Source: a virus. Taken from it: DNA of 64,000 nt. A program made the position numbers and the translations under genes. The stretch is taken from positions 3,430 through 67,429 of the IMG/VR virus record IMGVR_UViG_3300032086_002413. One strand, given 5' to 3'. The notes beneath the pieces are model-generated. The model did no database searches. It saw nothing but the letters and a program-made list of their open reading frames with translations, and had not been told where the DNA came from. The first letter of the stretch is position 1. Every line of letters starts with the position of its first letter. Positions 23,233 through 64,000 of this stretch are shown here, piece by piece.

Positions 23233-23507
23233 TACTTAGATCTTCTTTCCGCAAAACCACCAAAATTTTTCTTTTCGTCAGTCTCTTTATTATCAATCAT
23301 ACTTTTTTCATTTTCAATACGTGATAATATTTCAAAAGCATCAAATATTGCTAACTTTTTAGTTGCAGCAGCATTTTTTAAACGATCAGCAGCTAACTCA
23401 TCATCACCTCCTTCTACTATTATTTCTTCTTCTGCTACTCTTATTAATTCATGTACTGCTTTATAACCAGCTTGGATTATATTCGATTTCAGTTGTTTTG
23501 CTTCCAT
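23232..23507 (-). CDS. Small helical protein, possible terminase small subunit
   Basis: 91 aa, stop overlaps terL start; function from position only. Confidence 0.4.
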   Translation of the reverse strand: MEAKQLKSNIIQAGYKAVHELIRVAEEEIIVEGGDDELAADRLKNAAATKKLAIFDAFEILSRIENEKSMIDNKETDEKKNFGGFAERRSK

Positions 23508-38477: not shown

Positions 38478-38734
38478 AATACAGCAATGACATCTTGTTC
38501 TTTAATTACATGAAAAAATTCATCATTGAACTCTATGCCATACCCAGCATGTTTGTCGTAGTATATTTCATTTTCAGGTTCTAAACCCTCAATAAGATTA
38601 CCTACCGATATAACTTTTGCTTTTCTATATCTAACATCTTCTTGATGTTTTTCATTAAGTATTAAACCACTTTTATTTGGTTTAACCTCTTCTTTTATAC
38701 GACTAATTATTATGTACTTATTTACAGCTTTCAT
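38474..38734 (-). CDS. groES: Co-chaperonin GroES
   Basis: Start MKAVNKYIII at 38734; mobile loop KSGLIL, AKVISVG, IKEQDVIAVL; adjacent to GroEL. Confidence 0.85.
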   Translation of the reverse strand: MKAVNKYIIISRIKEEVKPNKSGLILNEKHQEDVRYRKAKVISVGNLIEGLEPENEIYYDKHAGYGIEFNDEFFHVIKEQDVIAVL

Positions 38735-44151: not shown

Positions 44152-44400
44152 ATGAGTGCAAAAACTAAAGAAGTAAAAGTAGTGAAAAGATTTGTGTTAT
44201 CTAAGAATAACATCAAAGACAAAAACCTAGTGTTATCATTCACTACAGCCAAAGGCGAAACAGTAGAGTATTCACCTTCAAAAGTGTACGAACAGTTAAA
44301 AGATAAGTTCGAACCTATGCCCTGCTGGAACAAGTATGGTAACTACACTAACAGACTTAATCTACCAAAGTTTGTACGTGAGCTTGACACACTCGTCTAA
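44152..44400 (+). CDS. First early protein, paralogue A
   Basis: 82 aa; own promoter and terminator; near-identical to 44537-44782. Confidence 0.85.
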   Translation: MSAKTKEVKVVKRFVLSKNNIKDKNLVLSFTTAKGETVEYSPSKVYEQLKDKFEPMPCWNKYGNYTNRLNLPKFVRELDTLV

Positions 44401-44536: not shown

Positions 44537-44782
44537 ATGTCAAAAAGTAAAGAAGTAAAAGTAGTAAAGCGATTTGTACTAAGTAAAAACAACATCAAAG
44601 ACAAGTCACTTGTATTAGAGTACACAAACAAGAAAGGTGAAACATTTCAATACAAACCTTCAAAGGTGTATGAGCAACTAAAGGATAAGTTCGAAGCAAT
44701 GCCTTGTTGGGAAAAGTATGGTAATTACACTAACTCAGTTAACTTACCAAAGTTTGTTAGAGAATTAAAAACAATAGTTTAA
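44537..44782 (+). CDS. First early protein, paralogue B
   Basis: 81 aa, about 63 of 77 aligned residues identical to paralogue A (manual count). Confidence 0.85.
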   Translation: MSKSKEVKVVKRFVLSKNNIKDKSLVLEYTNKKGETFQYKPSKVYEQLKDKFEAMPCWEKYGNYTNSVNLPKFVRELKTIV

Positions 44783-51219: not shown

Positions 51220-51837
51220 ATGAGACTGTTAACACAAAATACAAAGTTAAAGCGGACAAGCAAAATTGAAGGTGAACGCGTACTCAATTTTAGTATTCCC
51301 GCTTACAAGTCAGCTACGGGTAAAATTACTTGCCCGTATGCTGGTCCTTGTAAAGAGTTCTGTTACGCTAAACAGAAATTTTACAAAATGCCTAACGTTA
51401 AAAAATCTCACGAGCAAAAGTTGCTATACACACTTCGCCCAGACTTTGCAGAGCTTATGATAGCCGAGCTAAAGCTAGAAAGACCCACATATGTACGTAT
51501 ACATGACGGCGGTGACTTTTACAGTAAAGAGTATATACACAAGTGGTTTGATGTTATGAATACTATGAAAGATATTAAGTTTTATGCTTATACTAATAGT
51601 ATACGCTTCTTTGAAGCTGATGATGTAAAACCTTTTATACCAGATAATTTTGATCTAATATACTCAACATCCGGTGTCGATGCAGATCGCATTGATTATA
51701 AACGCCACAGGCATGCTAAAATATTTGATAACAAATTAACACTTTGGGAATCAGGCTACGTATCTGCTTCAAAATCAGATCTTAAAGCAACAAGATGGTT
51801 TACAAAAACAAATAAAATAGGTTTAATATTTCACTAA
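51220..51837 (+). CDS. GP88-like protein (Cys cluster, radical-SAM-like fold)
   Basis: TCPYAGPCKEFCYA, VRIHDGGDFYS, FYAYT motifs. Confidence 0.7.
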   Translation: MRLLTQNTKLKRTSKIEGERVLNFSIPAYKSATGKITCPYAGPCKEFCYAKQKFYKMPNVKKSHEQKLLYTLRPDFAELMIAELKLERPTYVRIHDGGDFYSKEYIHKWFDVMNTMKDIKFYAYTNSIRFFEADDVKPFIPDNFDLIYSTSGVDADRIDYKRHRHAKIFDNKLTLWESGYVSASKSDLKATRWFTKTNKIGLIFH

Positions 51838-52277
51838 TGATAGAATTAAAATTACTAGTTGATCTAGTACAAAAAGAGTTTAACATATTAGATATAAGCT
51901 CAAAAAAACGAGGTAGAGATAGAGTACACGCAAGATGGGTTTATTTCAAACTTGCAAGAACATATACTCGTCATTCTTATTCTCTTATAGGCAAAACAGT
52001 AAATAGAGATCATGCTACTGTGCTACATGGTTTAAAATATATCGATGTTGATATGAAAGACAAGCGCTTTTATTACTTGTTAGAGATATATAACAAAATA
52101 GAAAAGTTTTTAATAACAGGCCAAGAGATATTACATGATGAGAATTTAGTAGATTTACGTAGCTTACTTGACAGAATAAAGAAACTAGAAAAAAGAGTAA
52201 GCGTGCTAGAATATGAAAAAAGTCAACATAATAAGGTGGGACAAGATCAAAACGCAATGGCAAATGTTACAAGCTAG
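51837..52277 (+). CDS. DnaA C-terminal (domain IV) HTH protein
   Basis: SKKR-x-R-x-x-V-x-AR...SYSLIG...NRDHATVLHG. Confidence 0.75.
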   Translation: MIELKLLVDLVQKEFNILDISSKKRGRDRVHARWVYFKLARTYTRHSYSLIGKTVNRDHATVLHGLKYIDVDMKDKRFYYLLEIYNKIEKFLITGQEILHDENLVDLRSLLDRIKKLEKRVSVLEYEKSQHNKVGQDQNAMANVTS

Positions 52278-52977: not shown

Positions 52978-53621
52978 GAAATTTTAAATACATAGAGAGA
53001 AACAAAATAATTTACAGGAGAGATCCAATAACAGATATACCAGATGTAGTAACAAAAGATTATGTTTATTTTATAAATGGAACTTATCAGTGTTATGATC
53101 TATTTAGATCAAAAGCATTAATCACAACACACAGGTCATTAGTTTGGCATTTAACTGTTTTGTGGTATCTAAATCCTAACATGACCCTTGATCAGTTTGT
53201 AGATTTATCAGAAAATATAACAAAAAAAGAAAATAATTTTATTACATTTACTATTAACAAGAAAGCTCTCAATGACATTATCAATGTTGTTTACTCGCAA
53301 GATCTTGATAGGCCACCAAAAAACAAGTTAAGAAAAATAATATTTAAAGACACTTGTTTGCTTAGCGTCAACGATAAATTAAAAATAGTTGGCTCTCTAA
53401 TTGGTAAACAAAAGAAAATAGAAGAACAAGATATATACGAAGCTATGATCTTGATAAATGATAAGAGAGAAAAAATAACGATAAGCAAACTAAGTAAAGA
53501 GCTTAACGTAACAACTAGAACAATTTACAGAAACATAAACGAACAATTAAAACAGGAAAAAACCATAATGAACGAAAGCTTAAATGAAAAAGTACAACGT
53601 ACAAAATTACATACGTTATAA
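52968..53621 (+). CDS. HTH DNA-binding protein
   Basis: C-terminal KITISKLSKELNVTTRTIYRNI helix-turn-helix. Confidence 0.65.
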   Translation: MDVRNFKYIERNKIIYRRDPITDIPDVVTKDYVYFINGTYQCYDLFRSKALITTHRSLVWHLTVLWYLNPNMTLDQFVDLSENITKKENNFITFTINKKALNDIINVVYSQDLDRPPKNKLRKIIFKDTCLLSVNDKLKIVGSLIGKQKKIEEQDIYEAMILINDKREKITISKLSKELNVTTRTIYRNINEQLKQEKTIMNESLNEKVQRTKLHTL

Positions 53622-54330
53622 AAAAGACTTAGAACAAGCAACAAAAATTAATGATGCAAAATTTGAAGATCAGGATTTAGTTGTAAAGTATCTACCTTTA
53701 GTAGAATCAATAGCAAGAAGATTCTCTACAGAAGGTAAATATATTGGTATATTAACAATAAATGATTTGATACAAGAAGGAAGTATAGGTTTGATAAACG
53801 GGTTAAAAAATGTAGACCAAGAAATATTAATGAGCTCTATTGATCCAGATGCAACATTACATAGCTTTCTTAGCAAAAGAATAAAAGGAACCATTAGAAG
53901 AGCTATAAACACATATAGAAACAACATGAGAATACCTGAGTCAGAGATGAACAGGTTAAAAAAAAAATCTAAAGAAACAGATTCAGATGAAGAAATAATA
54001 AATCAATTTCTACAAGCTATTTTCTTGCAACTAGATAACACAAATGAAAATGGAGAAAGCTATGCTAATAATGTAGCTTATGAAGAAGACGAATATTTGC
54101 ACAATGATGAGTTAATTAAAATGATAAACCTTTTTTTAAATGACAAAGAGCAAATAGTGGTAAAACGTAGTTTTGGAATAGACTGCGATAAAGCTAAAGC
54201 AAAGGAAATAGCTGTAGAAATAGGTTTAAAAGGCGAAAACTCACAAGTTAGAGTTTCAGAAATAAAAAGAGCCGCTATATTTAAACTTTGTAACAACTTA
54301 AATAAAAATCAATTTATAAAGTTTATGTAA
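53584..54330 (+). CDS. Sigma-70-family RNA polymerase sigma factor
   Basis: Region 2 YLPLVESIARRF...DLIQEGSIGL; region 4 LNDKEQIVVKRSFGI...EIA...RVSEIKRAAIFKL. Confidence 0.85.
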   Translation: MKKYNVQNYIRYKKDLEQATKINDAKFEDQDLVVKYLPLVESIARRFSTEGKYIGILTINDLIQEGSIGLINGLKNVDQEILMSSIDPDATLHSFLSKRIKGTIRRAINTYRNNMRIPESEMNRLKKKSKETDSDEEIINQFLQAIFLQLDNTNENGESYANNVAYEEDEYLHNDELIKMINLFLNDKEQIVVKRSFGIDCDKAKAKEIAVEIGLKGENSQVRVSEIKRAAIFKLCNNLNKNQFIKFM

Positions 54331-54795: not shown

Positions 54796-55580
54796 TGAAT
54801 AAAAAAGAAATAATTGAAAAGCTTAGAGATGATGAGCAATACTATGGTAAATTTGGAAAACAATACTTTTCATATAGTGACATAAACACTTTGATAAATA
54901 ATCCTGAAGCTTATGGTATACCATCAGTAAACAACATCAACTTTGTGCTTGGCGGTTATTTTCACACTTGCATACTAGAGCCTCACAAGTTAGATAAGTT
55001 TAAAATAATTAAATCTAGTAGCAGAAATACTAAAGCATACAAGGAATTATCTGATGGTGAAATATGCATGTTAGAGCAAGAAGCTGACATGATGCAAGTA
55101 TTAAAAGAAAAAGTTTTAAGTAATGATTTTATAAGAGAGCTTATACAAGATAAAGATGCCGAATACGAAGTGCCAAATATAGGCGAGATTGAAGGTAAAA
55201 CATTCAAGTGTAAAGCTGATATAGTAAATCACAAGCATAAACTTATAATTGATCTTAAAACTACAGGTAAATCTATAGATGAATTTAAGTATTCTGCAAG
55301 AAACTTTTATTATAATTCACAAGCGTATATATATAGTAAAATATTTGGTTATGACTTTGCGTTTGTAGTCGTAACTAAACCGACAATAAAAGCTTATCAA
55401 GAAGCTTTACAGAAAGGCGTAGATCCTATGAGTTTAGTGAAACTAGGATACTTCGACTGTTCTGATGACTTTTTATCATACGGTCTTGACAATATACGTC
55501 AGGCCTTAGATAATTATGAGTTGTATTACAATACACCTAACTTTAAACCTGAAAATTTTATAATCACTAAAACACTTTAA
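54795..55580 (+). CDS. PD-(D/E)XK RecE-like exonuclease
   Basis: FSYSDI, GGYFH-x-x-ILEP, KCKADI, IIDLKTT, YNSQAYIY. Confidence 0.8.
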   Translation: MNKKEIIEKLRDDEQYYGKFGKQYFSYSDINTLINNPEAYGIPSVNNINFVLGGYFHTCILEPHKLDKFKIIKSSSRNTKAYKELSDGEICMLEQEADMMQVLKEKVLSNDFIRELIQDKDAEYEVPNIGEIEGKTFKCKADIVNHKHKLIIDLKTTGKSIDEFKYSARNFYYNSQAYIYSKIFGYDFAFVVVTKPTIKAYQEALQKGVDPMSLVKLGYFDCSDDFLSYGLDNIRQALDNYELYYNTPNFKPENFIITKTL

Positions 55581-55582
55581 TT

Positions 55583-55888
55583 ATGGCAGTTATTATTAAT
55601 GGCTCAATAAACTTGAGCAAAATCCCAAAAGACAAAATCATCGATGGTAAAAAAGGTAAATACTTACCTATAAGTATTACCGTTAATGACGAACTTGACA
55701 ACTTTGGTAATCAAGGTCCTATTACAGTTGCACAAAGCAAAGAAGAGAGAGAAAGTAAAACCGAAAAAGTATTCTTAGGAAATATCAGTGTTGCTTGGAC
55801 TAACAATAAAATAGAAAAATTAGATAAACAACAAACATCTACACCTGTAACAGCTCAAGCAAGCAGCGATACAGATTTACCGTTTTAA
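55583..55888 (+). CDS. Single-stranded DNA-binding protein
   Basis: GKKGKYL OB-like core and acidic C-terminal DTDLPF tail. Confidence 0.7.
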   Translation: MAVIINGSINLSKIPKDKIIDGKKGKYLPISITVNDELDNFGNQGPITVAQSKEERESKTEKVFLGNISVAWTNNKIEKLDKQQTSTPVTAQASSDTDLPF

Positions 55889-55891
55889 TTT

Positions 55892-57589
55892 ATGCAAGAG
55901 ATCAATGGTTTTACTATAGATAAGTATAATCAATATGATCTTGATAAAGGGAAGAAAGAGGGTATATGCCCTCTTTGTTCTCATGAACGACAACAACACA
56001 ACAAGAAGAAAAAATGTGCTTCATACGACTGGGACAGAGGTTTAGGCACGTGCCACAACTGTGATCAAGTATTTCAACTGCACACGTATTTAAGAAAAGG
56101 TGATGTATATAAAGAGTATACAAAACCTGTTTTTCAAAACAATACTGATCTTTCTGACAATGTTGTAAAGTGGTTTTCATCAAGAGGTATTGAACAGCAT
56201 GTACTTAATAAAATGAAAATATCAGAAGGTATAGAGTATATGCCTCAGCTGAATAAAGAAGTAAATACAATACAGTTTAATTATTTTATTAATGACGAAT
56301 TAATTAATGTAAAGTATAGAGATGGACAAAAGAATTTTAAATTATACAAAGGAGCAGAAAAAGTATTCTATAACATTGATAGTGTTATTAATCATGACTG
56401 GTGTGTTATTGTCGAAGGAGAAATTGATGCTCTATCTGTTATACAATGTGGGATCAATAATGTGGTATCTGTTCCAAACGGAGCTACTACTAATAGGAAC
56501 AATTTGGATTACCTTGATAATTGTATTGAATATTTTGAAAACAAAAATAAGATCATTATCGCGGTTGATCAAGATGAAGCTGGAGAAGCGCTTAAACAAG
56601 AGCTTATTAGAAGACTTGGTGCTGAAAACTGTTATACGGTTGAATTTGGCAATTACAAAGATGCAAACGATTACCTTGTTAATAATGACTCCAATAGTCT
56701 TAGGTCTGTCATTAATAATGCTAATCCTGTTCCCCTTGAATACGTTATAACATTAAATGATGTTGAAAAAGATCTTGAAGATTTTGTTGAAAATGGTTTC
56801 AAGCCGGGTTATCAAATCGGTCTTGAAAACTTTGACAGCATCTTCTCCACTTATACTGGACAGTTCATCACAGTTACCGGCGTTCCTAGTAGTGGTAAGT
56901 CTGACTTTGTTGATAGAATGGTGTTGGGATACAACTTGAAATATGGTTGGAAAACAGCATACGCATCACCAGAAAATCAACCAGTATTTTTACATGGTCA
57001 TAAGCTTGTAAGAAAAATGTGGGGTGACATGCCTACAAAAAACGATATTAATAGCGAAAAATGGAATAACATAACATCACATATTAATGATAATTTTTAT
57101 TTTATTGATATGGAAAGGTATGATCTAGATGCTGTATTAAAAAAAGGTGCTGAACTTGTAAAAAGAAAAGGCATTAAATGCCTTGTTATAGATCCTTTTA
57201 ATAAAGTTAAAATGTTAGACGGTACATCATTAAGTGTAGTTGATTATACTATGGAGTATCTGACACGTATAGATGCATTTTGTAAGAAATATGATGTGCT
57301 AGTTATAATAGTAGCTCATCCAACTAAAATGTTTAAAAAAGAAGATGGAGAAATTGAAGAACCAAATATGTATAATATTAAAGGCGGTGGCGAATGGTAT
57401 GACGCTAGTTATCATGGCCTTCTTGTTCACCGTAATTACTCTTTGGGAACTGTTAAGGTTAAAGTTCTCAAGGTTAAATTCCAAAACTTAGGTGAAAATC
57501 AAGCTGAAGCGTTTTTTAAATGGGAACCTACATCAGGTAATTACATACCTAATGAGCAAAGTCAGACAAATGATATACCTTGGCAGTAG
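55892..57589 (+). CDS. Primase-helicase (T7 gp4/Twinkle-like)
   Basis: Zn finger CPLC...CHNC, TOPRIM IVEGEIDALS and D-x-D, KDAND, Walker A GVPSSGKS, VIDP, VAHP. Confidence 0.9.
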   Translation: MQEINGFTIDKYNQYDLDKGKKEGICPLCSHERQQHNKKKKCASYDWDRGLGTCHNCDQVFQLHTYLRKGDVYKEYTKPVFQNNTDLSDNVVKWFSSRGIEQHVLNKMKISEGIEYMPQLNKEVNTIQFNYFINDELINVKYRDGQKNFKLYKGAEKVFYNIDSVINHDWCVIVEGEIDALSVIQCGINNVVSVPNGATTNRNNLDYLDNCIEYFENKNKIIIAVDQDEAGEALKQELIRRLGAENCYTVEFGNYKDANDYLVNNDSNSLRSVINNANPVPLEYVITLNDVEKDLEDFVENGFKPGYQIGLENFDSIFSTYTGQFITVTGVPSSGKSDFVDRMVLGYNLKYGWKTAYASPENQPVFLHGHKLVRKMWGDMPTKNDINSEKWNNITSHINDNFYFIDMERYDLDAVLKKGAELVKRKGIKCLVIDPFNKVKMLDGTSLSVVDYTMEYLTRIDAFCKKYDVLVIIVAHPTKMFKKEDGEIEEPNMYNIKGGGEWYDASYHGLLVHRNYSLGTVKVKVLKVKFQNLGENQAEAFFKWEPTSGNYIPNEQSQTNDIPWQ

Positions 57590-57870
57590 TGTCTAAGTAC
57601 AAAAAAAACAACTGGATGCCTGAACATAATCCTAGCGAGGAAGATATGAAAGCTAGTGTCTGGTGTATTAAGAATGATATTAGAATATCACCAATGGGTA
57701 TAAATGGTGAACAAAATAAATGGAGAATATGTATTAATGTTGGCCCATACGTCAAGGGTGAAAAACAAAACATATCACCACACATCTATGATAAAGATAC
57801 TATATGGATAGAATACTTTAATTTTTGCAAATACTACTATAATAAAAGAAATGATCGAAAAACCAATTGA
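57580..57870 (+). CDS. Hypothetical protein
   Basis: 96 aa ORF in operon. Confidence 0.6.
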   Translation: MAVVSKYKKNNWMPEHNPSEEDMKASVWCIKNDIRISPMGINGEQNKWRICINVGPYVKGEKQNISPHIYDKDTIWIEYFNFCKYYYNKRNDRKTN

Positions 57871-58522
57871 ACCAATAAAAACAATACATTACAATGCTAG
57901 GTTTGCATTTGAATATCTTTACGATTATATCTCTGAACATGGAGAAGATTTTTCTGATACAAAAGCTATATTTGATGTAGGCATCACATTGTTACATCCA
58001 AATAAAAATGAAATAAACACTGCTTGGCGTGGTTGGAATTTAACATACGCAAGACGTGAATGGGATTGGTATTTATCAGGAAATCCTAATGCTGAAGATA
58101 TAGCTAAAAAAGCTCCTATATGGTACAAAATGATGGATTCAGATGGAAATGTTAGAAGTAATTATGGTTGGCAATGGCAACGAGAGCATCAGCTTGATAA
58201 AGTTGTGGCTATGCTTAGAGATAATCCTGACACCAGGCAAGCTTGTATTTCTATTTATGATGGAAAAGAAATTAGTACGTATCGCAATGATACTCCTTGT
58301 ACTTACTCTATACAGTTCACTGTACGCGATAATTTGCTATACATGAGCGTTTATATGAGGTCTAATGATCTTTGGTATGGATTTTGTAATGATCAATATT
58401 GTTTTAGTGAATTATTTTCTTTAGTTTCGAAAGAAACAGGTTATAAAATGGGTTACTATTATCACCACGTACACAACATGCATATATATAATGATTTTTT
58501 AAATAGAAACAATCAAACCTGA
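57851..58522 (+). CDS. Thymidylate synthase superfamily enzyme, probably dCMP-specific (hydroxy)methylase
   Basis: NYG, DTRQA, catalytic PC, MRSNDLWYGFCND with Asp at the N177-equivalent site, HIY. Confidence 0.75.
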   Translation: MIEKPIEPIKTIHYNARFAFEYLYDYISEHGEDFSDTKAIFDVGITLLHPNKNEINTAWRGWNLTYARREWDWYLSGNPNAEDIAKKAPIWYKMMDSDGNVRSNYGWQWQREHQLDKVVAMLRDNPDTRQACISIYDGKEISTYRNDTPCTYSIQFTVRDNLLYMSVYMRSNDLWYGFCNDQYCFSELFSLVSKETGYKMGYYYHHVHNMHIYNDFLNRNNQT

Positions 58523-58527
58523 AAATA

Positions 58528-59283
58528 ATGTATTACATTTATCATATCCCTGGTATAAAAAAAATAGGTTGTACCAACAATTTAGAAAGACGTGTTGAAA
58601 AACAACAAGGATGGAGCAAGGAGGAATATCAAGTACTCTTCGCCACTTCAGATGTAAAAAAAGCATCTGATGTAGAACATGATCTACAACGAGTATACGG
58701 CTACAAAGTAGATTTAAATAGATACGAAACTTTAATAAACATGAAAATAAACACTACACCACAAACAACAACTTTTTACTGCAGTAAAGAACAATTAGAT
58801 GAAAAACTATTAAGAGATAAGAAAATAGATCTTATAGATGAAACACTAAGTCTTGATGAAGACTGGAAGATACAATGGGTATTAAAAAACTCAGTTGTCT
58901 CTATGTTTGATAAAGACAAATGTTTTGTTTATAATAAAGCTATGAAAATGGCATTTGAAGAGCCACTATTTGATAAACCGGATATGTTTACTATGTTTGA
59001 CAATATTAGAAAATGGGCCAAAGACAGGGGTATATACGAAAAAGGAGATCCTAAAACACAATTAATAAAGCTATATGAAGAAACCGGAGAACTATCGCAA
59101 TCATTACTTAAAAATGATAAACCTGGTGTTATCGACGCTATTGGTGATAGTGTTGTTGTGCTTACTAATCTTGCCCACTTGGTCGATGTCGACATTGAAA
59201 CTTGTATTCAGTCTGCTTATGATGAAATATCTAATAGAACTGGCAAAATGAAAAACGGAACTTTTGTAAAAGATCAATTATAA
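58528..59283 (+). CDS. GIY-YIG-like / MazG-like NTP pyrophosphatase fusion
   Basis: N-terminal YYIYH...KIGCTNNLERR; C-terminal WAKDRG...KLYEETGEL...DAIGD. Confidence 0.75.
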   Translation: MYYIYHIPGIKKIGCTNNLERRVEKQQGWSKEEYQVLFATSDVKKASDVEHDLQRVYGYKVDLNRYETLINMKINTTPQTTTFYCSKEQLDEKLLRDKKIDLIDETLSLDEDWKIQWVLKNSVVSMFDKDKCFVYNKAMKMAFEEPLFDKPDMFTMFDNIRKWAKDRGIYEKGDPKTQLIKLYEETGELSQSLLKNDKPGVIDAIGDSVVVLTNLAHLVDVDIETCIQSAYDEISNRTGKMKNGTFVKDQL

Positions 59284-59300
59284 TTTAATATTCAACAACT

Positions 59301-59723
59301 ATGAGAAATTTAATTTTATTTTTATTACCTGCAATTACATTTGCACAATTAGAGATTGATAATCTAAACAGAGATTATTCAGAAGCTTTAGACTTAACTA
59401 ATGTTATCAGATCATACTACGATTATCCTAGTTTAAAGCATAGTGATAGTTTATCTATTATTGCTAAAGAAGCTGCCATTGCATTTTTAAAAGAAGAAGA
59501 AACAATTGGCACAAACACTGTGTTTTATTATGTAGATAAACATCAGTTTGTTTTAAGAGACACATACATGAGAGATGCTGTTGTAGCTTGGTCTGTTGAT
59601 ACAGATTTGATTACTAGACAAGAAACATTTACACAGATGATTAATGATGAAACAACGCATGTAGGTTTTGCTATTGAAGAAAAAAATGGATTTGTTTGTG
59701 TAACAGCTAAATTTAATAAATAA
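59301..59723 (+). CDS. Secreted CAP/SCP-like domain protein
   Basis: Signal peptide MRNLILFLLPAITFAQ; N-x-x-R...L...AVVAW...FTQMI...THVGFA. Confidence 0.55.
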   Translation: MRNLILFLLPAITFAQLEIDNLNRDYSEALDLTNVIRSYYDYPSLKHSDSLSIIAKEAAIAFLKEEETIGTNTVFYYVDKHQFVLRDTYMRDAVVAWSVDTDLITRQETFTQMINDETTHVGFAIEEKNGFVCVTAKFNK

Positions 59724-59980
59724 TGAATATAAAGCTAGAATCAAAAGATAAAGTCGTACACGACGTTGTAAAACAATTTGATAACAGATCAGCTGTCGGT
59801 TATGCTAAATACGGACAAACACTACAAGATGAACAAACTAGTGGTGTAAAAGATTTAGGTATGTATCTACAAGACGTTAAAGAAGAGTTGATGGACGCTA
59901 TATTATATATACAAGCAGCTCAAAATTCTTTACGAGATGAAATAGAAGAATGCTACATTAATGATGCGAAGAAAGAGTAA
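59723..59980 (+). CDS. Small all-alpha NTP pyrophosphohydrolase-like protein
   Basis: G-x-x-KYG-x-TL...KEELMDAILY (EExxD). Confidence 0.55.
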   Translation: MNIKLESKDKVVHDVVKQFDNRSAVGYAKYGQTLQDEQTSGVKDLGMYLQDVKEELMDAILYIQAAQNSLRDEIEECYINDAKKE

Positions 59981-60410
59981 AAAAAAAGGGCCTGTACAGT
60001 CAAAGAAAATATCCTATGATGGTATAAAATTTGCTTCAGGCCTAGAACGTTATATGTATATGGCTTTAAAAAAAGCTAAAATTAAAGCTAAATACGAAGG
60101 TGAAACTTTTGTTTTATTAAATGGTTTTCATTTTCAAAATGACGTGTACGAAAGACAAGCCAATAGTAAAGGAGAATTTACAAATAGAGGCTGTAAACGT
60201 ATTCTGCCTATAAAGTATACACCAGATTTTATAGGAGAAGATTTTATAATAGAGACTAAGGGTAGACCTAATGAGTCTTTTCCTATGAGATGGAAGTTAT
60301 TCAAAAAACTAGTAAGCGAACAATTTCCTAATTACACTCTTTTTAAACCACAGAATCAAAAAGAATGTGATAGAGTTATACAGATAATTAAAGATATGAG
60401 ACATGGCTAA
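59961..60410 (+). CDS. T7 endonuclease I-like Holliday junction resolvase
   Basis: FASGLE, YE, YTPDF, IIETKG. Confidence 0.8.
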   Translation: MMRRKSKKKGPVQSKKISYDGIKFASGLERYMYMALKKAKIKAKYEGETFVLLNGFHFQNDVYERQANSKGEFTNRGCKRILPIKYTPDFIGEDFIIETKGRPNESFPMRWKLFKKLVSEQFPNYTLFKPQNQKECDRVIQIIKDMRHG

Positions 60411-60540
60411 AAATATACAAATAGGTAAAATAGTTAAGCACAAAATAAAAAGAAAAGGAGTGCACGCGAAAACTAAAACGTCTAAGCTTAAGTCTAGTAA
60501 GAATTATGTAAAAAGATATAACTCACAGGGAAGAATATGA
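60403..60540 (+). CDS. Small basic protein (45 aa)
   Basis: Read manually: MAKNIQ...KRKGVHAKTKTSKLKSSKNYVKRYNSQGR. Confidence 0.6.
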   Translation: MAKNIQIGKIVKHKIKRKGVHAKTKTSKLKSSKNYVKRYNSQGRI

Positions 60541-60677
60541 GCGGTTTTGAGATACATTTAGGTCTATACCCTGGTGTCTTATTAGGTATGAGATCTTATC
60601 CAGAGAAAAACTTTGTAGAGCACGTTATATATGTGCCTTTTATAGAATTATGCATAACTATACATTACGATAAATAA
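60537..60677 (+). CDS. Hypothetical protein (46 aa)
   Basis: Read manually: MSGFEIHLGLYPGVLLGMRSY... Confidence 0.55.
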   Translation: MSGFEIHLGLYPGVLLGMRSYPEKNFVEHVIYVPFIELCITIHYDK

Positions 60678-60679
60678 AT

Positions 60680-61648
60680 ATGGGATTATTTGACGAAAGA
60701 ATACCTTACAAGCCATTTGAGTATCCAGAATACTATACTGAAGGTTGGCTTAAACAAGCTCAAGCTTTTTGGCTACACACTGAGATACCAATGTCTGGTG
60801 ATGTTAAAGACTGGAACGAAAAACTAACACAAGAAGAAAAAAACTTAGTAGGTAATATATTGCTAGGTTTTGCTCAAACAGAATGTGCGGTGTCTGATTA
60901 TTGGACACAGAAGGTTGTATCGTGGTTTCCAAAACATGAAATACAACAGATGGCTATGATTTTTGGTAGCCAAGAAACAATACACGCTGTAGCATACAGC
61001 TATTTAAACGAAACTTTAGGACTTGAAAACTTTGAAGCTTTTTTACATGAGCCGGCAACGGCAGATAGATTTGATAATCTCGTTACTTATAATGGTAACG
61101 ATCCCGTGGGTATTGGTAGATCATTGGCAATTTTTAGTGCGTTCGCAGAAGGAGTTAGTTTGTATTCTGCTTTCGCTGTTCTTTATAGCTTCCAATTACG
61201 TAATTTACTCAAGGGTATTGGGCAACAAATGAAGTGGTCTGTACGAGACGAATCATTACATAGTAAAATGGGATGTAAATTGTTTACACATATGTGTGAT
61301 GATATACCTGGCCTAAAAGAAAGTTGTTATGAAGACGTACTTGAAGCAGCACAAACAATGCTTGAATCAGAAGAAAAATATATCGACAAAATGTTCGAAC
61401 TCGGAGATATTGAAAATCTACGATCTTACGATCTTAAACAATTTATCAGAAAAAGACTTAATGAAAAAATCATGGAACTCGGTTACATCGACATCGGGAA
61501 ATACTTTGATTATGACGAAAAAGCAGCAAGCAATCTTGACTGGTTCTATCATCTTACCGGGGGGCATACTCATACTGATTTTTTTGCTATTAGGCCTACT
61601 GATTACTCAAAAGCTAACGAAGGCGAAGATTTTGAAGATATATGGTAA
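60680..61648 (+). CDS. nrdB: Ribonucleotide reductase class I beta subunit
   Basis: E68, E99-x-x-H102, Y106, EG, DESLH ferritin-like ligands; DFFA..Y tail. Confidence 0.9.
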   Translation: MGLFDERIPYKPFEYPEYYTEGWLKQAQAFWLHTEIPMSGDVKDWNEKLTQEEKNLVGNILLGFAQTECAVSDYWTQKVVSWFPKHEIQQMAMIFGSQETIHAVAYSYLNETLGLENFEAFLHEPATADRFDNLVTYNGNDPVGIGRSLAIFSAFAEGVSLYSAFAVLYSFQLRNLLKGIGQQMKWSVRDESLHSKMGCKLFTHMCDDIPGLKESCYEDVLEAAQTMLESEEKYIDKMFELGDIENLRSYDLKQFIRKRLNEKIMELGYIDIGKYFDYDEKAASNLDWFYHLTGGHTHTDFFAIRPTDYSKANEGEDFEDIW

Positions 61649-62004
61649 CAAGAAGATGTAACAAGTGTAACAAACTAAAAAAACAAAGTAAGTTTAAGCA
61701 CGATAAAAAAAAGACGTGTTTAAAATGTGAATATCGTTTTAAAAGAAGCTTGTTAAGATCTTTAGTCATTGATAGAAGGTTATCTGCTGTTGAAAGAATA
61801 TCTAATAGATTAGGCTATATGGGAACAGCTTTTATAATGATGTCACCTTATTTATTAAATAACGGTTATATAGGTGCTACTACCTATGTGATCGGAGGTA
61901 TATTATCTATACCACAAGTATTTGTAGCTAAACAATGGAACTTAGTAGCGGTTAATTTAAACGTAACAATAGGATATTTAATTTATTTATATAACATACA
62001 ATGA
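61642..62004 (+). CDS. Zn-finger plus membrane protein
   Basis: CNKC...CLKC then three hydrophobic segments with a PQ dipeptide. Confidence 0.55.
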   Translation: MVTRRCNKCNKLKKQSKFKHDKKKTCLKCEYRFKRSLLRSLVIDRRLSAVERISNRLGYMGTAFIMMSPYLLNNGYIGATTYVIGGILSIPQVFVAKQWNLVAVNLNVTIGYLIYLYNIQ

Positions 62005-62207
62005 AAGAAAGTAAACTAGTAGAAATGTGGAACAAGATAGAAACCCTTGGTTCAAATCAACAGCAAATAATTCAGGAACTTCAGAATCTCAGAGATTTAT
62101 CTATTGGGACGATGTCACTAGTGAAGAAATTGCCAGATTACGAGAAAGCAATACAGGAACTAACAAAAGAAATGACAGAAAAAAATACTGAAGAAAATGT
62201 GGGATAA
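62001..62207 (+). CDS. Small coiled-coil protein
   Basis: 68 aa ORF coupled to nrdA. Confidence 0.6.
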   Translation: MKESKLVEMWNKIETLGSNQQQIIQELQNLRDLSIGTMSLVKKLPDYEKAIQELTKEMTEKNTEENVG

Positions 62208-63939
62208 TAATTGGAAAAAAGGTGTAGATTATCCTACATGGGGAGATACAGAAGTATATAAGAAAACAATAGGTGGAGGTTATTTATTATCTGACGAAAC
62301 GCCAAAAGAAGCTTACGAAAGAGTTAGTAAAGCTGTAGCTCGTAGATTATATAAACCAGAGTTATCAGATAAGTTTTTTGATTATATGTGGAAAGGCTGG
62401 CTTTGTTTAGCATCTCCTGTGTTGTCTAATACTGGAACAGATCGTGGTTTACCTATAAGCTGTTTTGGTATAGATGTAGCTGATAGTATAAATGATATAG
62501 GCCAAAAGAATTTAGAAATGATGTTGCTAGCTAAACACGGCGGGGGAGTTGGCATCGGAATAAATATGATTAGACCTGCTGGAGCTAAAATTACAGGTAA
62601 TGGAACATCAGATGGAGTTGTCCCGTTTTGCAAAATTTATGACTCAACTATACTCGCAACAAACCAAGGTGCCGTTAGAAGAGGAGCTGCAAGCGTTAAT
62701 ATCAATATCGACCATGATGACTTCGATGAGTGGTTGGAAATCAGAGAGCCTAAAGGAGACGTCAACAGACAATCTCTTAACTTACATCAGTGTGTTGTCA
62801 TCGGTGATAAGTTTATGCGAAAGCTTGAAACGGGAGATAAAGAAGCTAGGAAAAAGTGGGGCAAAGTACTCCAAAAACGTAAAGCAACTGGCGAGCCGTA
62901 TATCCTCTTTAAAGGAAATACAAACAAAGCTAATCCTGATGCTTACAAGACGAACGGATTAAAAGTACATATGACTAATATCTGTAGTGAAATAACACTT
63001 CATACAGATGAATCACATAGTTTTGTTTGTTGTTTATCTTCTGTTAATCTCGACAAGTATGATGAATGGAAAGACACTAACTTAATATATGATGCTACTT
63101 GGTTTTTAGATGGTGTATTGGAAGAGTTTATACAAAGAGCTAAAGGCATGAAAGGTTTTGATAACTCAGTTAGAAGTGCTGTCAAAGGAAGAGCTTTAGG
63201 TTTAGGTGTTTTGGGTTGGCATACTTATCTACAAAAAAATGGTATAGCTTTTGAAGGCCTTTTAGCACAGTTTAAAACAAGAGAGATTTTTTCTAAAATA
63301 AAAATAGAAACAGAAAGAGCTTCAAGAAAATTAGCAGAAATATATGGTGAGCCTTTATGGTGCGCTGGAACTGGTATGCGTAATACTCACCTAAGAGCTG
63401 TTGCGCCGACTGTATCTAATTCTAAATTATCTGGTAACGTTTCACCAGGTATAGAACCATGGGCTGCAAACGTATTTACAGAGCAATCTGCTAAAGGAAC
63501 ATTTATACGTAAAAACAAAGAACTTAAAAAAGTTTTACGTAAATTAGCTATAGACAACAAAGAGACTTGGGATAAGATACTAGAAGACGGAGGATCAGTA
63601 CAAGATATAAAACAACTAGATGGTTGGTATTATGATCACGCTGGTAAATTAAATGAAGAAGAAGGAACACCTGTTAAAGACGTATTTAAAACTTTTAAAG
63701 AAATAAATCAATTAGAGTTAATACGTCAAGCTGGTATAAGACAAGACTATATAGATCAATCTGTTAGTTTGAATTTGGCTTTTCCATCTGTAGTTGATCC
63801 AAAATGGATTAACAAAGTACATATGGATGCATGGAAGAGAGGTATTAAAACCTTATATTATATGAGAACTGAGAGTGTTCTCAGAGGTGATATAGCTGCA
63901 AAAGCTATGGATCCAGACTGTTTGTCTTGTGATGGATAG
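62197..63939 (+). CDS. nrdA: Ribonucleotide reductase class I alpha subunit (short, no ATP cone)
   Basis: SP-x-x-SN, ISCF, GGGVG, RRGA, TNICSEI, APT, IDQSVS-x-N, KTLYY, C-terminal CLSC. Confidence 0.93.
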   Translation: MWDNNWKKGVDYPTWGDTEVYKKTIGGGYLLSDETPKEAYERVSKAVARRLYKPELSDKFFDYMWKGWLCLASPVLSNTGTDRGLPISCFGIDVADSINDIGQKNLEMMLLAKHGGGVGIGINMIRPAGAKITGNGTSDGVVPFCKIYDSTILATNQGAVRRGAASVNINIDHDDFDEWLEIREPKGDVNRQSLNLHQCVVIGDKFMRKLETGDKEARKKWGKVLQKRKATGEPYILFKGNTNKANPDAYKTNGLKVHMTNICSEITLHTDESHSFVCCLSSVNLDKYDEWKDTNLIYDATWFLDGVLEEFIQRAKGMKGFDNSVRSAVKGRALGLGVLGWHTYLQKNGIAFEGLLAQFKTREIFSKIKIETERASRKLAEIYGEPLWCAGTGMRNTHLRAVAPTVSNSKLSGNVSPGIEPWAANVFTEQSAKGTFIRKNKELKKVLRKLAIDNKETWDKILEDGGSVQDIKQLDGWYYDHAGKLNEEEGTPVKDVFKTFKEINQLELIRQAGIRQDYIDQSVSLNLAFPSVVDPKWINKVHMDAWKRGIKTLYYMRTESVLRGDIAAKAMDPDCLSCDG

Positions 63940-63961
63940 TTTATTATTCTTGTTGTTGTTG

Positions 63962-63996
63962 AAAAAAGGGTAACCGTTTGGCTACCCTTTTTTTTA
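63962..63996. terminator. Bidirectional intrinsic terminator
   Basis: A-run, GGGTAACC-GTTT-GGCTACCC stem, T-run after nrdA. Confidence 0.85.
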
Positions 63997-64000
63997 TTTT

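What the first reader, a model, noticed from the sequence alone, without database searches (positions are those of the whole stretch)
57851..59980. Candidate cytosine-modification module: dCMP-type TS homologue plus two MazG-type pyrophosphatases
Seen: the motif reads RSNDLWYGFCND with Asp (codon 58391-58393) at the position that is Asn177 in E. coli ThyA (RSCDVFLGLPFN). Known: Asp there specifies dCMP, as in T4 dCMP hydroxymethylase gp42 and the ThyA N177D mutant. The next gene has a MazG-like domain and 59723-59980 is a second EExxD all-alpha NTP-PPase, which could play the role of T4 gp56 dCTPase. Inference: the phage replaces C with 5hmC, 5mC or 5-hydroxy-C. No glycosyltransferase or dNMP kinase is visible in this window.
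Basis: partly seen in the sequence, partly recalled or inferred. Interest (0 to 1): 0.75.

Follow-up and report, generated by a model that had tools for sequence, protein, structure and literature searches.

The report
Phage dCMP hydroxymethylase with MazG partner
An uncultured marine flavobacterial-type phage carries a small enzyme that most likely makes 5-hydroxymethyl-dCMP, next to a nucleotide pyrophosphatase, so its DNA probably contains 5-hydroxymethylcytosine; this is a known trick in a new, abundant and stripped-down form.

Summary
ORF 57851-58522 (223 aa) is a thymidylate-synthase (TS) homologue. Codon 58391-58393 (GAT) is Asp at the E. coli N177 position.

It also has every published mark of a dCMP hydroxymethylase:
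- Asp three residues before the catalytic Cys (D147/C150)
- the Ser-x-Tyr triad (S103, Y105)
- no TS C-terminal tail
- Asp kept at position 169, which argues against a 5-hydroxy-dCMP synthase

These residues are invariant in 121/121 family members. Its best solved relatives are MilA and T4 gp42, and in a tree its family groups with gp42, away from the XP12 5mC enzyme.

The next gene (58528-59283) is a T5orf172-like/MazG fusion, and the MazG fold is confirmed. It accompanies the TS gene in 76/80 related viral loci. A dCTPase role is only inferred.

The 85-aa ORF (59723-59980) is helical and has EExxD, but no method recognised it as MazG. Elsewhere this domain is fused to MazG, TS, GT8 and PurE. 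A CAP-domain gene lies between it and the fusion.

The record (CheckV 100%) gave no match to the kinase, glycosyltransferase, dCMP-deaminase and DNA-polymerase families searched. This is a new member of a known kind.

The parts
57851..58522 (+). 223-aa thymidylate-synthase-superfamily protein, predicted dCMP hydroxymethylase (5hmdCMP synthase). Key codons: S103 58157-58159, Y105 58163-58165, D147 58289-58291, C150 58298-58300, D173 58367-58369, D181 58391-58393.
   Evidence: PF00303 at E 2.3e-26. Best PDB sequence hits are MilA at 5e-21 and T4 gp42 at 9e-18. Active-site table. Key residues invariant in 121/121 family members. Tree. Codons read.
58528..59283 (+). 251-aa fusion. It has an N-terminal T5orf172/GIY-YIG-like domain (about residues 1-70), a small alpha/beta middle domain of unknown function (about 74-145), and a C-terminal MazG-type all-alpha NTP pyrophosphatase domain (about 150-250, about 58975-59280). 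Candidate dCTP pyrophosphatase.
   Evidence: Pfam T5orf172 at 3.8e-4 (21.3 bits, cut-off 20); MazG at 1.1e-3, below cut-off. PHROG MazG-like families at 7e-35 and 6e-30. AF2 pLDDT 89. Foldseek top hits 2yxh, 1vmg, 5ie9, 7mu5, 6sqw. Profile against 1vmg at 2e-7. E184, E185, E188, D203 and D207 are invariant in 44/44 aligned sequences. Present in 76/80 related loci.
59301..59723 (+). 140-aa CAP/SCP-domain protein with a hydrophobic N-terminal signal-like segment. It lies between the fusion and the 85-aa ORF and is probably not part of the nucleotide module.
   Evidence: Pfam CAP PF00188 at 7.6e-8. Homologues occur in only 3/80 related loci.
59723..59980 (+). 85-aa helical protein with the conserved motif R-S-x-x-G-x-x-K-Y-G ... 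E-E-L-M-D-A-x-x-Y. It is an accessory domain of unknown activity and is not demonstrably a MazG.
   Evidence: Alignment A1. No Pfam match. hhalign about 1%. AF2 model. Foldseek negative. Found in 36-37/80 related loci and directly after the MazG gene in 27/76. Fused to MazG, T5orf172, TS, GT8 and PurE in other proteins.
57580..57870 (+). 96-aa ORF of unknown function that overlaps the start of the TS-like gene. It is a conserved upstream neighbour.
   Evidence: No Pfam or PHROG match. Its cluster is present in 47/80 related loci and is the immediate upstream gene in 32/80.
60680..63939 (+). Context: class I ribonucleotide reductase small subunit (60680-61648) and large subunit (62197-63939) in the same + strand gene string. 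They would supply dCDP and other dNDPs.
   Evidence: PF00268 at 1.5e-55; PF02867 at 4.8e-88.

Best explanation
The 223-aa gene encodes a folate-dependent dCMP hydroxymethylase. The proposed mechanism follows T4 gp42:
- Cys150 attacks C6 of dCMP.
- Asp181 reads the cytosine N3/N4 edge.
- The methylene of CH2-THF is transferred to C5.
- Asp147, with Ser103 and Tyr105, activates a water molecule that hydrates the exocyclic methylene intermediate. TS would transfer a hydride at this step instead.
- The missing TS C-terminal tail leaves the active site open to solvent.
- The product is 5hmdCMP.

The gene is co-transcribed with a T5orf172-like/MazG fusion. Its MazG domain most plausibly hydrolyses dCTP to dCMP + PPi, which would feed the hydroxymethylase and deplete unmodified dCTP, as gp56 does in T4. 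The phage's own RNR would supply deoxycytidine nucleotides.

Phosphorylation of 5hmdCMP would have to be done by host kinases, and incorporation by the host replisome, because the kinase and family A DNA-polymerase families searched gave no match in the record. Because the glycosyltransferase families searched also gave no match, the expected product is plain 5hmC DNA.

Shown here: family membership, active-site signature, MazG fold, conserved gene pairing.
Inferred: enzymatic product, dCTP specificity of the MazG domain, extent of C replacement.

My odds: hydroxymethylase about 0.8; 5hmC present in virion DNA about 0.55; MazG acting as dCTPase about 0.4.
For: 1. TS-family membership and nearest solved relatives. 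PF00303 at E 2.3e-26. The best PDB hits are the CMP hydroxymethylase MilA (5e-21) and T4 dCMP hydroxymethylase (9e-18), ahead of any TS (2.6e-16).

2. Substrate determinant. Asp181 sits at the E. coli N177 position. In my alignment:
- the cytosine enzymes T4 gp42, XP12 and RB69 gp48 carry Asp there;
- the uracil enzymes E. coli ThyA, RB69 td, SPO1 gp29, ViI and phiW-14 carry Asn.
The rule is stated in PMC13326640 (section 24), PMC8670742 (passages) and PMC6400193 (passages).

3. Hydroxymethylation signature of PMC6400193 (passages):
- Asp three residues before the catalytic Cys; the D145N mutant of T4 dCH is inactive.
- A Ser-x-Tyr triad.
- No C-terminal tail.
The query has D147-T-P-C150 and S103-N104-Y105, and it ends 10 residues after Y213, the Tyr of the H-x-Y motif. 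XP12, the 5mC phage, has Asn at position 143 and a long C-terminal extension.

4. Position 169 stays Asp (D173). PMC13326640 (section 28) uses D169N as the diagnostic for 5hodCMP synthases. RB69 gp48 has RSQN at this place in my own extraction.

5. The query matches T4 gp42 at 11 of the 12 residues that PMC13326640 lists within 6 A of C5.

6. S103, Y105, D147, C150, D173 and D181 are invariant in 121/121 family members. Of the 150 best 50%-identity cluster representatives, 137 cover all the sites. All 137 have Asp at position 177, 134 have Asp and 1 has Glu at position 143, and 74 share the full S-Y-D-C-D-D pattern with gp42.

7. Tree of 30 rows. All hydroxy(methyl)ase-type sequences form one clade (100/99) that excludes TS and XP12. 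The query family plus Bacteroides phage BF486P2 gp32 (96/93) is sister to T4 gp42 + RsoM2USA + HHU4 (90/84).

8. The MazG fold of the neighbour is confirmed. Its Foldseek hits include human DCTPP1 (7mu5) and mouse dCTPase (6sqw). 7mu5 is also the Foldseek match that PMC13326640 Table 1 gives for the proteins it labels dCTPase in RB69 and DLP3 (passage).

9. The TS-MazG pair is kept in 76/80 related IMG/VR loci, and 3 of the 4 misses end within about 430 nt after the TS gene. In 56/76 loci the MazG gene starts within 16 nt of the TS stop. The pair persists in at least two different gene contexts.

10. PMC8670742 reports that Asp177 TS homologues are enriched on cytosine-modified environmental viral contigs and co-occur with PRA-PH (PF01503) domains (passages). 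ORF2 hits PF01503 at 2e-3.
Against: - No enzymatic or DNA-composition data exist. All product assignments rest on residue signatures and homology at 25-30% identity to characterised enzymes.
- Tree support for the gp42 sister relation is 90/84, not starred. gp42 and several references sit on very long branches.
- No dNMP kinase was found. The only Walker A motif in a credible gene is in the primase-helicase, and Thymidylate_kin gave no match. T4 needs gp1 for this step (my own knowledge). In PMC13326640, TS homologues expressed without their kinase gave only trace modified base. C replacement may therefore be partial or fail without a suitable host kinase.
- The MazG family of ORF2 occurs in 1,087 phage records, mostly Streptococcus, Staphylococcus, Enterococcus and Paenibacillus phages, with no TS homologue annotated under those matches.
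- ORF2 homologues gave no match in T4, XP12, VPE25, BF486P2, AB434P2, RsoM2USA and HHU4 (0/5 and 0/5 records; the positive control worked). All seven carry an Asp-type TS homologue.
- The 76/80 co-occurrence comes from related phages and may reflect shared descent more than functional coupling.
Confidence: 0.6

Rival explanations
1. The hydroxymethylase is real but the MazG partner is not a dCTPase. The TS homologue makes 5hmdCMP. The T5orf172-MazG fusion is a general house-cleaning or dUTP/non-canonical-NTP pyrophosphatase, or it has a DNA-directed role through its GIY-YIG-like domain. It would then be kept next to the TS gene by synteny alone. C replacement would be partial, or the 5hmC would be processed further by unrecognised genes.
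For: - The same MazG family is widespread in phages with no TS homologue annotated under the match (1,087 records).
- It gave no match in 7 other phages that carry an Asp-type TS homologue.
- No sequence feature tested here speaks to base specificity.
- Related phages carry extra genes (a PLP enzyme and two unknown 300-aa proteins) directly upstream of the TS gene, so further modification exists in the wider group.
Against: - The pair is kept immediately adjacent in 56/76 loci and across two different gene contexts.
- PRA-PH/MazG-type domains co-occur with Asp177 TS on modified contigs in PMC8670742.
- The T-even paradigm pairs a DCTPP1-fold dCTPase with the TS homologue (PMC13326640 Table 1).
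- The extra candidate modification genes are absent from this genome.
Confidence: 0.25
2. dCMP methyltransferase. The enzyme transfers methylene plus hydride, as TS and the XP12 enzyme do, giving 5mdCMP and 5-methylcytosine DNA.
For: - Asp at position 177 alone is also what the E. coli and L. casei TS N-to-D mutants and XP12 have (PMC8670742 passages; XP12).
- XP12 also has Ser at the Ser-x-Tyr position.
Against: - Position 143 is Asp, invariant in 121/121 members. XP12 has Asn there and TS has Leu.
- D145N abolishes hydroxymethylation in T4 dCH (PMC6400193).
- The TS-like C-terminal tail that seals the site for hydride transfer is absent here but present in XP12.
- XP12 branches outside the hydroxymethylase clade (100/99).
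Confidence: 0.06
3. Flavin-dependent 5-hydroxy-dCMP synthase of the RB69 gp48 / DLP3 gp80 type, giving 5-hydroxycytosine as a base for glycosylation.
For: It shares N177D and an acidic residue at position 143 with those enzymes (PMC13326640).
Against: - The diagnostic D169N substitution is absent. D173 is invariant in 121/121 members.
- RB69 gp48 groups with the dUMP hydroxymethylases, not with the query, in the tree (95/86, though on a long branch).
- The glycosyltransferase families searched (GT1, GT2) gave no match in the genome.
Confidence: 0.03
4. Ordinary thymidylate synthase or dUMP hydroxymethylase acting on dUMP.
For: It is annotated 'thymidylate synthase' in PHROGs and in source names, and it is the only TS-family gene in the genome.
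Against: - Asp replaces Asn at position 177, Thr replaces His at 147 and Asp replaces Leu at 143, and there is no C-terminal tail.
- NCBIfam TS equivalog scores are far below their cut-offs, for example 78.5 against 327 bits.
- All three dUMP hydroxymethylases examined keep Asn177.
Confidence: 0.03

Closest known systems
T4 gp42 deoxycytidylate hydroxymethylase (PDB 1B49/1B5E/6A9A)
   Same: - Same superfamily.
- It shares the catalytic Cys, Asp at position 177, Asp three residues before the Cys, and the Ser-x-Tyr triad.
- It matches at 11 of the 12 residues near C5.
- It lacks the TS C-terminal tail.
- It is the nearest characterised enzyme in the tree.
   Different: - The phmmer alignment covers only query residues 63-214, and the E-value of 9e-18 shows a distant relative.
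- The query is 223 aa against 246 aa and ends 10 residues after the Tyr of H-x-Y, where gp42 has about 27 more.
- The genome gave no match for a gp1-type kinase or the glycosyltransferase families searched. A homologue of the ORF2 MazG protein was not found in T4 either.
MilA CMP 5-hydroxymethylase (PDB 5B6D/5JNH)
   Same: Best PDB sequence hit (E 5e-21). It has Asp at both the 143 and 177 positions (PMC13326640).
   Different: MilA is 325-342 aa with extra C-terminal sequence. It acts on the ribonucleotide CMP in antibiotic biosynthesis in Streptomyces. The query lies in a phage replication and nucleotide-metabolism operon next to RNR.
Bacteroides phage BF486P2 gp32 (WAX06796.1) and its close relatives
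   Same: Closest homologue in cultured phages at 50% identity over 89% of the query. It is 226 aa with the same short form and the same signature, and is annotated deoxycytidylate 5-hydroxymethyltransferase. It is sister to the query family in the tree (96/93).
   Different: That phage has a second, divergent TS paralogue and a dUTPase. No homologue of the T5orf172-MazG fusion was found in it. I found no paper reporting its DNA composition.
Xanthomonas phage XP12 dCMP methyltransferase (5mC)
   Same: TS homologue with Asp at position 177.
   Different: It has Asn rather than Asp at position 143, Pro at 147, and a long TS-like C-terminal region. It branches next to canonical TS.
RB69 gp48 / DLP3 gp80 5hodCMP synthases (PMC13326640)
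   Same: TS homologues with N177D and an acidic residue at position 143.
   Different: They carry D169N and bind a flavin. The query keeps Asp at position 169.
T-even gp56 dCTPase and DCTPP1, MazG-type all-alpha NTP pyrophosphatases
   Same: The C-terminal domain of ORF2 has this fold (Foldseek hits 7mu5 and 6sqw at probability 1.00) and sits in a similar pathway position.
   Different: - There is no detectable sequence similarity to anything in T4.
- ORF2 is fused to a T5orf172/GIY-YIG-like domain and a middle domain.
- Its substrate is untested.
- Its closest sequence relatives are MazG-like proteins of Firmicutes siphophages.
MetaGPA association of Asp177 TS domains with modified-cytosine viral contigs (PMC8670742)
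   Same: It covers environmental phages and reports the same Asp177 and non-His147 signature, together with co-occurrence with PRA-PH-type pyrophosphohydrolase domains.
   Different: That work is at the level of Pfam domains. From the passages I read, I could not tell whether this short family or the T5orf172-MazG fusion was among its contigs, and supplements are closed.

Membership tests
Thymidylate synthase superfamily (Pfam PF00303) | Significant match to the family profile above the curated cut-off | tested here: met
   93 bits against a cut-off of 24.3, E 2.3e-26, covering residues 65-218. The six-frame search of the whole record finds exactly one match.
Thymidylate synthase superfamily (Pfam PF00303) | Catalytic Cys and the nucleotide-binding residues (E58, R166, S167, D169, H207, Y209 in E. 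coli numbering) | tested here: met
   E70, C150, R170, S171, D173, H211 and Y213. They are invariant in 120-121 of 121 family members.
dCMP hydroxymethylase (T4 gp42 type) | Asp at the E. coli N177 / T4 D179 position (cytosine specificity) | tested here: met
   D181, codon GAT at 58391-58393. Invariant in 121/121 members.
dCMP hydroxymethylase (T4 gp42 type) | [quoted passage not shown] | tested here: met
   D147-T-P-C150. Invariant in 121/121 members. The rule comes from PMC6400193 and PMC13326640.
dCMP hydroxymethylase (T4 gp42 type) | Ser-x-Tyr triad that holds the catalytic water (T4 S94, Y96) | tested here: met
   S103-N104-Y105, identical to T4 S-N-Y. Invariant in 121/121 members.
dCMP hydroxymethylase (T4 gp42 type) | Absence of the TS C-terminal tail that seals the active site | tested here: met
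   The protein ends 10 residues after Y213, the Tyr of the H-x-Y motif. E. coli ThyA continues for about 55 residues.
dCMP hydroxymethylase (T4 gp42 type) | Formation of 5hmdCMP from dCMP and CH2-THF | not testable with these tools
   This needs an enzyme assay or LC-MS.
5hodCMP synthase (RB69 gp48 type) | Asn at the E. coli D169 position | tested here: not met
   D173 is retained. RB69 gp48 has Asn there. The diagnostic is from PMC13326640 section 28.
dCMP methyltransferase (XP12 type) | Non-acidic residue at position 143 together with a TS-like C-terminal region | tested here: not met
   The query has Asp at 143 and no tail. XP12 has Asn at 143 and a long C-terminus. This rests on a single reference sequence.
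Canonical thymidylate synthase (NCBIfam equivalogs) | Score above the equivalog cut-off, with Asn177, His147 and Leu143 | tested here: not met
   The best score is 78.5 bits against a cut-off of 327. The residues are D, T and D.
MazG / all-alpha NTP pyrophosphatase (ORF 58528-59283, C-terminal domain) | Four-helix MazG fold and conserved acidic metal-binding residues | tested here: met
   Foldseek gives 2yxh, 1vmg, 5ie9, 7mu5 and 6sqw at probability 1.00 with TM (target) 0.55-0.76. The profile matches 1vmg at 2e-7. E184, E185, E188, D203 and D207 are invariant in 44/44 sequences. Pfam MazG alone is below its cut-off (19.6 against 22 bits).
dCTPase (T4 gp56 / DCTPP1 function) | Preference for dCTP as substrate | not testable with these tools
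   Only the fold class is shared. There is no sequence match in T4.
MazG / all-alpha NTP pyrophosphatase (ORF 59723-59980) | Recognisable MazG profile match or fold | tested here: not met
   0/33 members match MazG or PRA-PH. hhalign gives about 1%. Foldseek finds no PDB match below E 9. Only an EExxD motif and helical content are shared.
T5orf172 / GIY-YIG-like domain (ORF 58528-59283, N-terminus) | Profile match and a beta-beta-alpha-beta-alpha core with conserved Tyr, Arg and Glu | tested here: inconclusive
   PF10544 scores 21.3 bits against a cut-off of 20, E 3.8e-4. The Atlas nearest clusters carry T5orf172 in 11-48% of members. The AF2 secondary structure is E2-7, E12-16, H19-26, E35-40, H43-57. 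Y5, K12, G14, R22 and E50 are invariant. No fold search of this domain alone was possible.

The most novel reading that the evidence does not exclude
This would be a minimal, kinase-less and glycosyltransferase-less 5hmC pathway that is widespread in marine phages. It would consist of a short gp42-like hydroxymethylase and a fusion protein. The GIY-YIG-like domain of the fusion would attack unmodified, cytosine-containing host DNA, as T4 EndoII does, while its MazG domain destroys dCTP.

The 85-aa 'RS..KYG..EELMDA' domain would be a docking module that assembles nucleotide-metabolism enzymes into a dNTP-synthetase-like complex. The enzymes it is found fused to are MazG, TS, PurE and GT8.
Probability: 0.12. 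Interest if true: 0.7.

Novelty: new member of a known kind. Interest (0 to 1): 0.45.

Why it matters
If the prediction holds, 5-hydroxymethylcytosine DNA is not confined to T-even-like myoviruses. It would also be made by a large uncultured group of marine phages related to flavobacterial podoviruses. The close family turned up in 509 IMG/VR stretches. The search of 50%-identity cluster representatives found 7,599 proteins at E <= 0.001, of which 41 reach E <= 1e-30.

The predicted gene set is much smaller than that of T4. This bears on:
- how such phages evade restriction;
- how marine viromes behave in sequencing and in enzymatic 5hmC assays;
- what the minimum requirements are for replacing a DNA base, in particular whether host kinases and the host replisome suffice.

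The short enzyme would also be a compact candidate reagent for making 5hmdCMP.

Tried and rejected
- **Megablast of 55000-64000 against phage records:** no match.
- **PADLOC on six proteins of the region:** no match.
- **Complex prediction** of the MazG domain (ORF2 residues 148-251) with the 85-aa protein: 'no answer', score 0.00 against a mark of 0.32. This says nothing either way.
- **Ways tried to tie the 85-aa ORF to MazG, all negative:** single-sequence and family Pfam scans, hhalign, PDB phmmer (best hit TOM70 at E 0.11, meaningless), and Foldseek against PDB and BFVD.
- **Promoter and terminator scan of 55500-64000:** 34 promoter-like sites against 41.7 expected by shuffling, so uninformative. 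I do not rely on the 5 terminator-like sites (2.3 expected).
- **T4 td left out of the tree:** RB69 td and E. coli ThyA served as canonical TS references instead.
- **Rejected idea, crAss-like phage:** I considered this because of the very large minus-strand ORFs. Capsid-type proteins instead match Flavobacterium 'elemo', Cellulophaga and Maribacter podovirus records at 45-54% identity.
- **Literature:** five searches found no paper describing this short TS family or its T5orf172-MazG partner. Supplementary files, which may list such contigs or alignments (for example Fig. S11 of PMC6400193 and the MetaGPA tables), were not available.

Full report
**Setting**

The window is bases 3430-67429 of a single 67,429-bp viral record with 32.7% G+C. 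CheckV rates the record 100% complete.

The minus-strand half encodes:
- virion structural proteins, a holin and an endolysin;
- a phage GroEL.

A capsid-type protein is 45-54% identical to proteins of Flavobacterium 'elemo', Maribacter and Cellulophaga phage records. The phage therefore belongs with podovirus-like phages of Flavobacteriia.

The plus-strand genes from about 44 kb to the end form a tightly packed early string. In order it holds:
- many small ORFs;
- a GP88-family protein;
- a DnaA_C-like protein;
- an HTH protein;
- a sigma factor;
- a PDDEXK exonuclease;
- a primase-helicase;
- the genes of the finding;
- a DUF1064 resolvase-like protein;
- class I RNR small and large subunits.

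**The observation**

ORF 57851-58522 (223 aa) is a member of the thymidylate synthase superfamily: PF00303 at E 2.3e-26, 93 bits against a cut-off of 24.3. It is the only such gene in the record.

The motif RSNDLWYGFCND is residues 170-181. Codon 58391-58393 reads GAT, which is Asp181. This Asp aligns with N177 of E. coli ThyA and D179 of T4 gp42.

The next gene (58528-59283, 251 aa) has a genuine MazG-type domain at its C-terminus:
- PHROG MazG-like families at 7e-35 and 6e-30;
- a profile of 44 homologues matches the MazG protein 1vmg at 2e-7;
- an AlphaFold model (pLDDT 89) finds MazG proteins, human DCTPP1 and mouse dCTPase by Foldseek at probability 1.00.

Pfam's MazG model alone is just under its cut-off. 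The N-terminal 70 residues resemble the T5orf172/GIY-YIG-like domain only marginally (21.3 against 20 bits; Atlas leads). Residues 74-145 form a small alpha/beta domain with no match.

The third gene of the finding (59723-59980, 85 aa) is helical and has an invariant EExxD. Every test of MazG membership failed:
- 0/33 relatives match any MazG-type Pfam model;
- hhalign gives about 1%;
- Foldseek gives nothing in the PDB and only unnamed viral proteins in BFVD.

A CAP-domain gene (59301-59723) lies between the two genes, which the finding does not mention.

**What the TS homologue is**

Three published rules can be applied. I read the relevant sections or passages of each paper.

1. *Position 177.* Asn selects dUMP and Asp selects dCMP (PMC13326640 section 24; PMC8670742 passages; PMC6400193 passages).

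2. *Hydroxymethylation versus methylation.*
   - PMC6400193 defines the signature as an Asp (or Glu) three residues before the catalytic Cys, which activates the substrate water.
   - The D145N mutant of T4 dCH is dead.
   - The signature also includes a Ser-x-Tyr triad and the lack of the TS C-terminal tail.
   - PMC13326640 states the same L143D/E rule.

3. *Position 169.* D169N marks the flavin-dependent 5-hydroxy-dCMP synthases (PMC13326640 section 28).

I checked these rules on sequences that I extracted myself from annotated phage records:

| Enzyme | Residue at 143 | Residue at 169 | Residue at 177 |
|---|---|---|---|
| E. coli ThyA, RB69 td (TS) | L | D | N |
| SPO1 gp29, ViI, phiW-14 (5hmdU phages) | D | D | N |
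| XP12 (5mC phage) | N | D | D |
| RB69 gp48 (5hoC) | E | N | D |
| T4 gp42 (5hmC) | D | D | D |
| Window protein | D (D147) | D (D173) | D (D181) |

The window protein also has S103-N104-Y105, identical to gp42's S-N-Y. It ends 10 residues after Y213, the Tyr of its H-x-Y motif. At the 12 residues that PMC13326640 lists within 6 A of C5, it equals gp42 at 11.

These residues are invariant in all 121 sequences of the close family (query plus the 120 listed hits). Of the 150 best 50%-identity cluster representatives, 137 cover all the sites. All 137 have Asp at 177, 135 have Asp or Glu at 143, and 74 have the full gp42 pattern.

By sequence, the nearest solved structures are MilA (CMP hydroxymethylase, 5e-21) and T4 gp42 (9e-18), ahead of any TS.

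A maximum-likelihood tree of 30 sequences, rooted on TS, gives the following:
- XP12 sits next to TS.
- All hydroxy(methyl)ase-type sequences form one clade (100/99).
- The query family plus Bacteroides phage BF486P2 gp32 (96/93) is sister to gp42 + RsoM2USA + HHU4 (90/84).

The reference branches are long and that last support value is moderate. I treat the tree as consistent with the residue evidence, not as independent proof.

**The neighbours**

I fetched 80 related IMG/VR loci, with TS identity of 53-66%.
- The T5orf172-MazG fusion is present in 76 of them.
- Three of the four misses end within about 430 nt after the TS gene. One (L089) truly lacks the fusion at that place.
- In 56 of the 76 loci the MazG gene starts within 16 nt of the TS stop.

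The pair persists in at least two contexts:
- The window's type: primase-helicase, orf96, TS, MazG, then often the 85-aa gene.
- A second type: a DUF6378 protein, two unknown proteins of about 300 aa and a PLP-dependent enzyme lie directly upstream of TS, with a terminase nearby.

This conservation, and the report that Asp177 TS domains co-occur with PRA-PH-type pyrophosphohydrolases on cytosine-modified viral contigs (PMC8670742), support a functional link. Foldseek on the ORF2 model hits 7mu5, the entry that PMC13326640 Table 1 gives as the Foldseek match for the RB69 and DLP3 dCTPases.

There is also evidence against a specific dCTPase role:
- This MazG family occurs in 1,087 phage records, chiefly Streptococcus, Staphylococcus, Enterococcus and Paenibacillus phages.
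- No homologue was found in T4, XP12, VPE25, BF486P2, AB434P2, RsoM2USA or HHU4 (the positive control is).
- The 80 loci are relatives, so their synteny is not 80 independent observations.

I therefore put the dCTPase role at about 0.4.

**The 85-aa protein**

A profile search among longer proteins found 49 proteins carrying this domain at E <= 1e-3. I scanned ten of them with Pfam and mapped all of them by BLASTP.

The domain occurs as a separate module in these arrangements:
- before or after true MazG domains (P0121, P0122, P0127, P0146);
- after a complete T5orf172-MazG protein that is 46% identical to ORF2 (P0123);
- after a T5orf172 domain (P0125);
- before a canonical TS with His147 and Asn177 (P0144);
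- before a family 8 glycosyltransferase (P0142);
- before PurE (P0133).

It is therefore an accessory module of nucleotide-metabolism enzymes, and gene fusion links it to ORF2. It is not a second MazG. What it does is unknown. The complex prediction with the MazG domain returned no verdict.

**What is missing**

Scans of every plus-strand ORF of kinase or transferase size, and of ten mid-sized minus-strand ORFs, gave no kinase or glycosyltransferase.

Six-frame searches of the record gave no match for Thymidylate_kin, GT2, GT1, dCMP deaminase or family A DNA polymerase. Controls matched in 10-14 of 14 reference genomes.

The only Walker A motif in a credible gene is in the primase-helicase.

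Many small ORFs have no family, so absence is not proven. On present evidence, 5hmdCMP would have to be phosphorylated by host enzymes and polymerised by the host replisome, and the base would stay unglycosylated.

In PMC13326640, TS homologues expressed without their kinase gave only trace modified base. The missing kinase is the main reason I put '5hmC in virion DNA' at about 0.55, although the enzyme assignment is about 0.8.

**Comparison and novelty**

dCMP hydroxymethylases, their diagnostic residues, and the environmental association of Asp177 TS homologues with modified cytosine and with PRA-PH/MazG-type domains are all in print (PMC6400193, PMC13326640, PMC8670742). The closest cultured homologue, in Bacteroides phages (50% identity), is already annotated as deoxycytidylate 5-hydroxymethyltransferase.

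What is specific to this case:
- the very short form of the enzyme;
- its abundance in marine viral contigs: 509 IMG/VR stretches; 7,971 of 8,000 scored candidates at E <= 1e-10, a set that must include TS relatives in general; 41 cluster representatives at E <= 1e-30;
- the constant T5orf172-MazG partner;
- the promiscuous 85-aa domain;
- the apparent lack of a kinase and of a glycosyltransferase.

Five literature searches found no description of this family or pairing. Supplementary material could not be consulted. I class the finding as a new member of a known kind, with moderate interest.

Noticed in passing
window 38731-40284 (-) and 23461-24063 (-): The phage encodes a GroEL-type chaperonin (517 aa, about 38% identical to chaperonins of Flavobacterium, Bacteroides and Maribacter phages) and a GroES-like protein (phrog_13932).
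   Followed up: partly
window 59301-59723 (+): A CAP/SCP/PR-1-domain protein with a hydrophobic N-terminal signal-like segment sits inside the nucleotide-metabolism gene string. Homologues occur in only 3/80 related loci, so it looks like a recent insertion. A secreted CAP protein in a phage early operon is unusual.
   Followed up: partly
L089:2983-5954 and about 23-28 other related loci (for example L021, L037, L081): In a subgroup of related viral contigs, a cassette lies directly upstream of the TS-like gene. It holds a DUF6378 protein, two unknown proteins of about 300 aa (one matching phrog_13881) and a PLP-dependent (PALP) enzyme. These are candidate genes for further modification of 5hmC. 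The cassette is absent from the window's genome.
   Followed up: partly
proteins P0121-P0169 (metagenomic): The 85-aa 'RSxxGxxKYG...EELMDAxxY' domain is a mobile module. It is fused to MazG, T5orf172, canonical TS, family 8 glycosyltransferase and PurE in different proteins. It has no Pfam family.
   Followed up: yes
window 44152-44400 and 44537-44782 (+): Two tandem paralogous ORFs of 81-82 aa with very similar sequences lie at the start of the early region. Function unknown.
   Followed up: no
window 57580-57870 (+): A 96-aa ORF with no family overlaps the start of the TS-like gene. Its cluster is in 47/80 related loci, and it is the immediate upstream gene in 32/80.
   Followed up: partly
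window 51220-51837, 51837-52277, 53584-54330 (+): The early region holds a Cys-rich GP88-family protein (PF17338, 9e-37), a DnaA C-terminal-domain-like protein and a sigma-70-like factor. No match to family A DNA polymerase (PF00476) was found in the record; other polymerase families were not searched.
   Followed up: partly
L016 (Enterococcus phage VPE25, record 31028-33386): VPE25's Asp-type TS homologue (D at 143 and 177) is followed by a dUTPase and a gene annotated beta-glucosyltransferase. This is a T4-like glucosyl-5hmC gene set in a Gram-positive siphophage.
   Followed up: no
window 5624-13399, 24545-31582, 31569-36185 (-): There are three very large minus-strand ORFs (2591, 2345 and 1538 aa), plus one of at least 1347 aa that runs off the window start. 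They were not analysed and presumably encode virion or ejected proteins.
   Followed up: no
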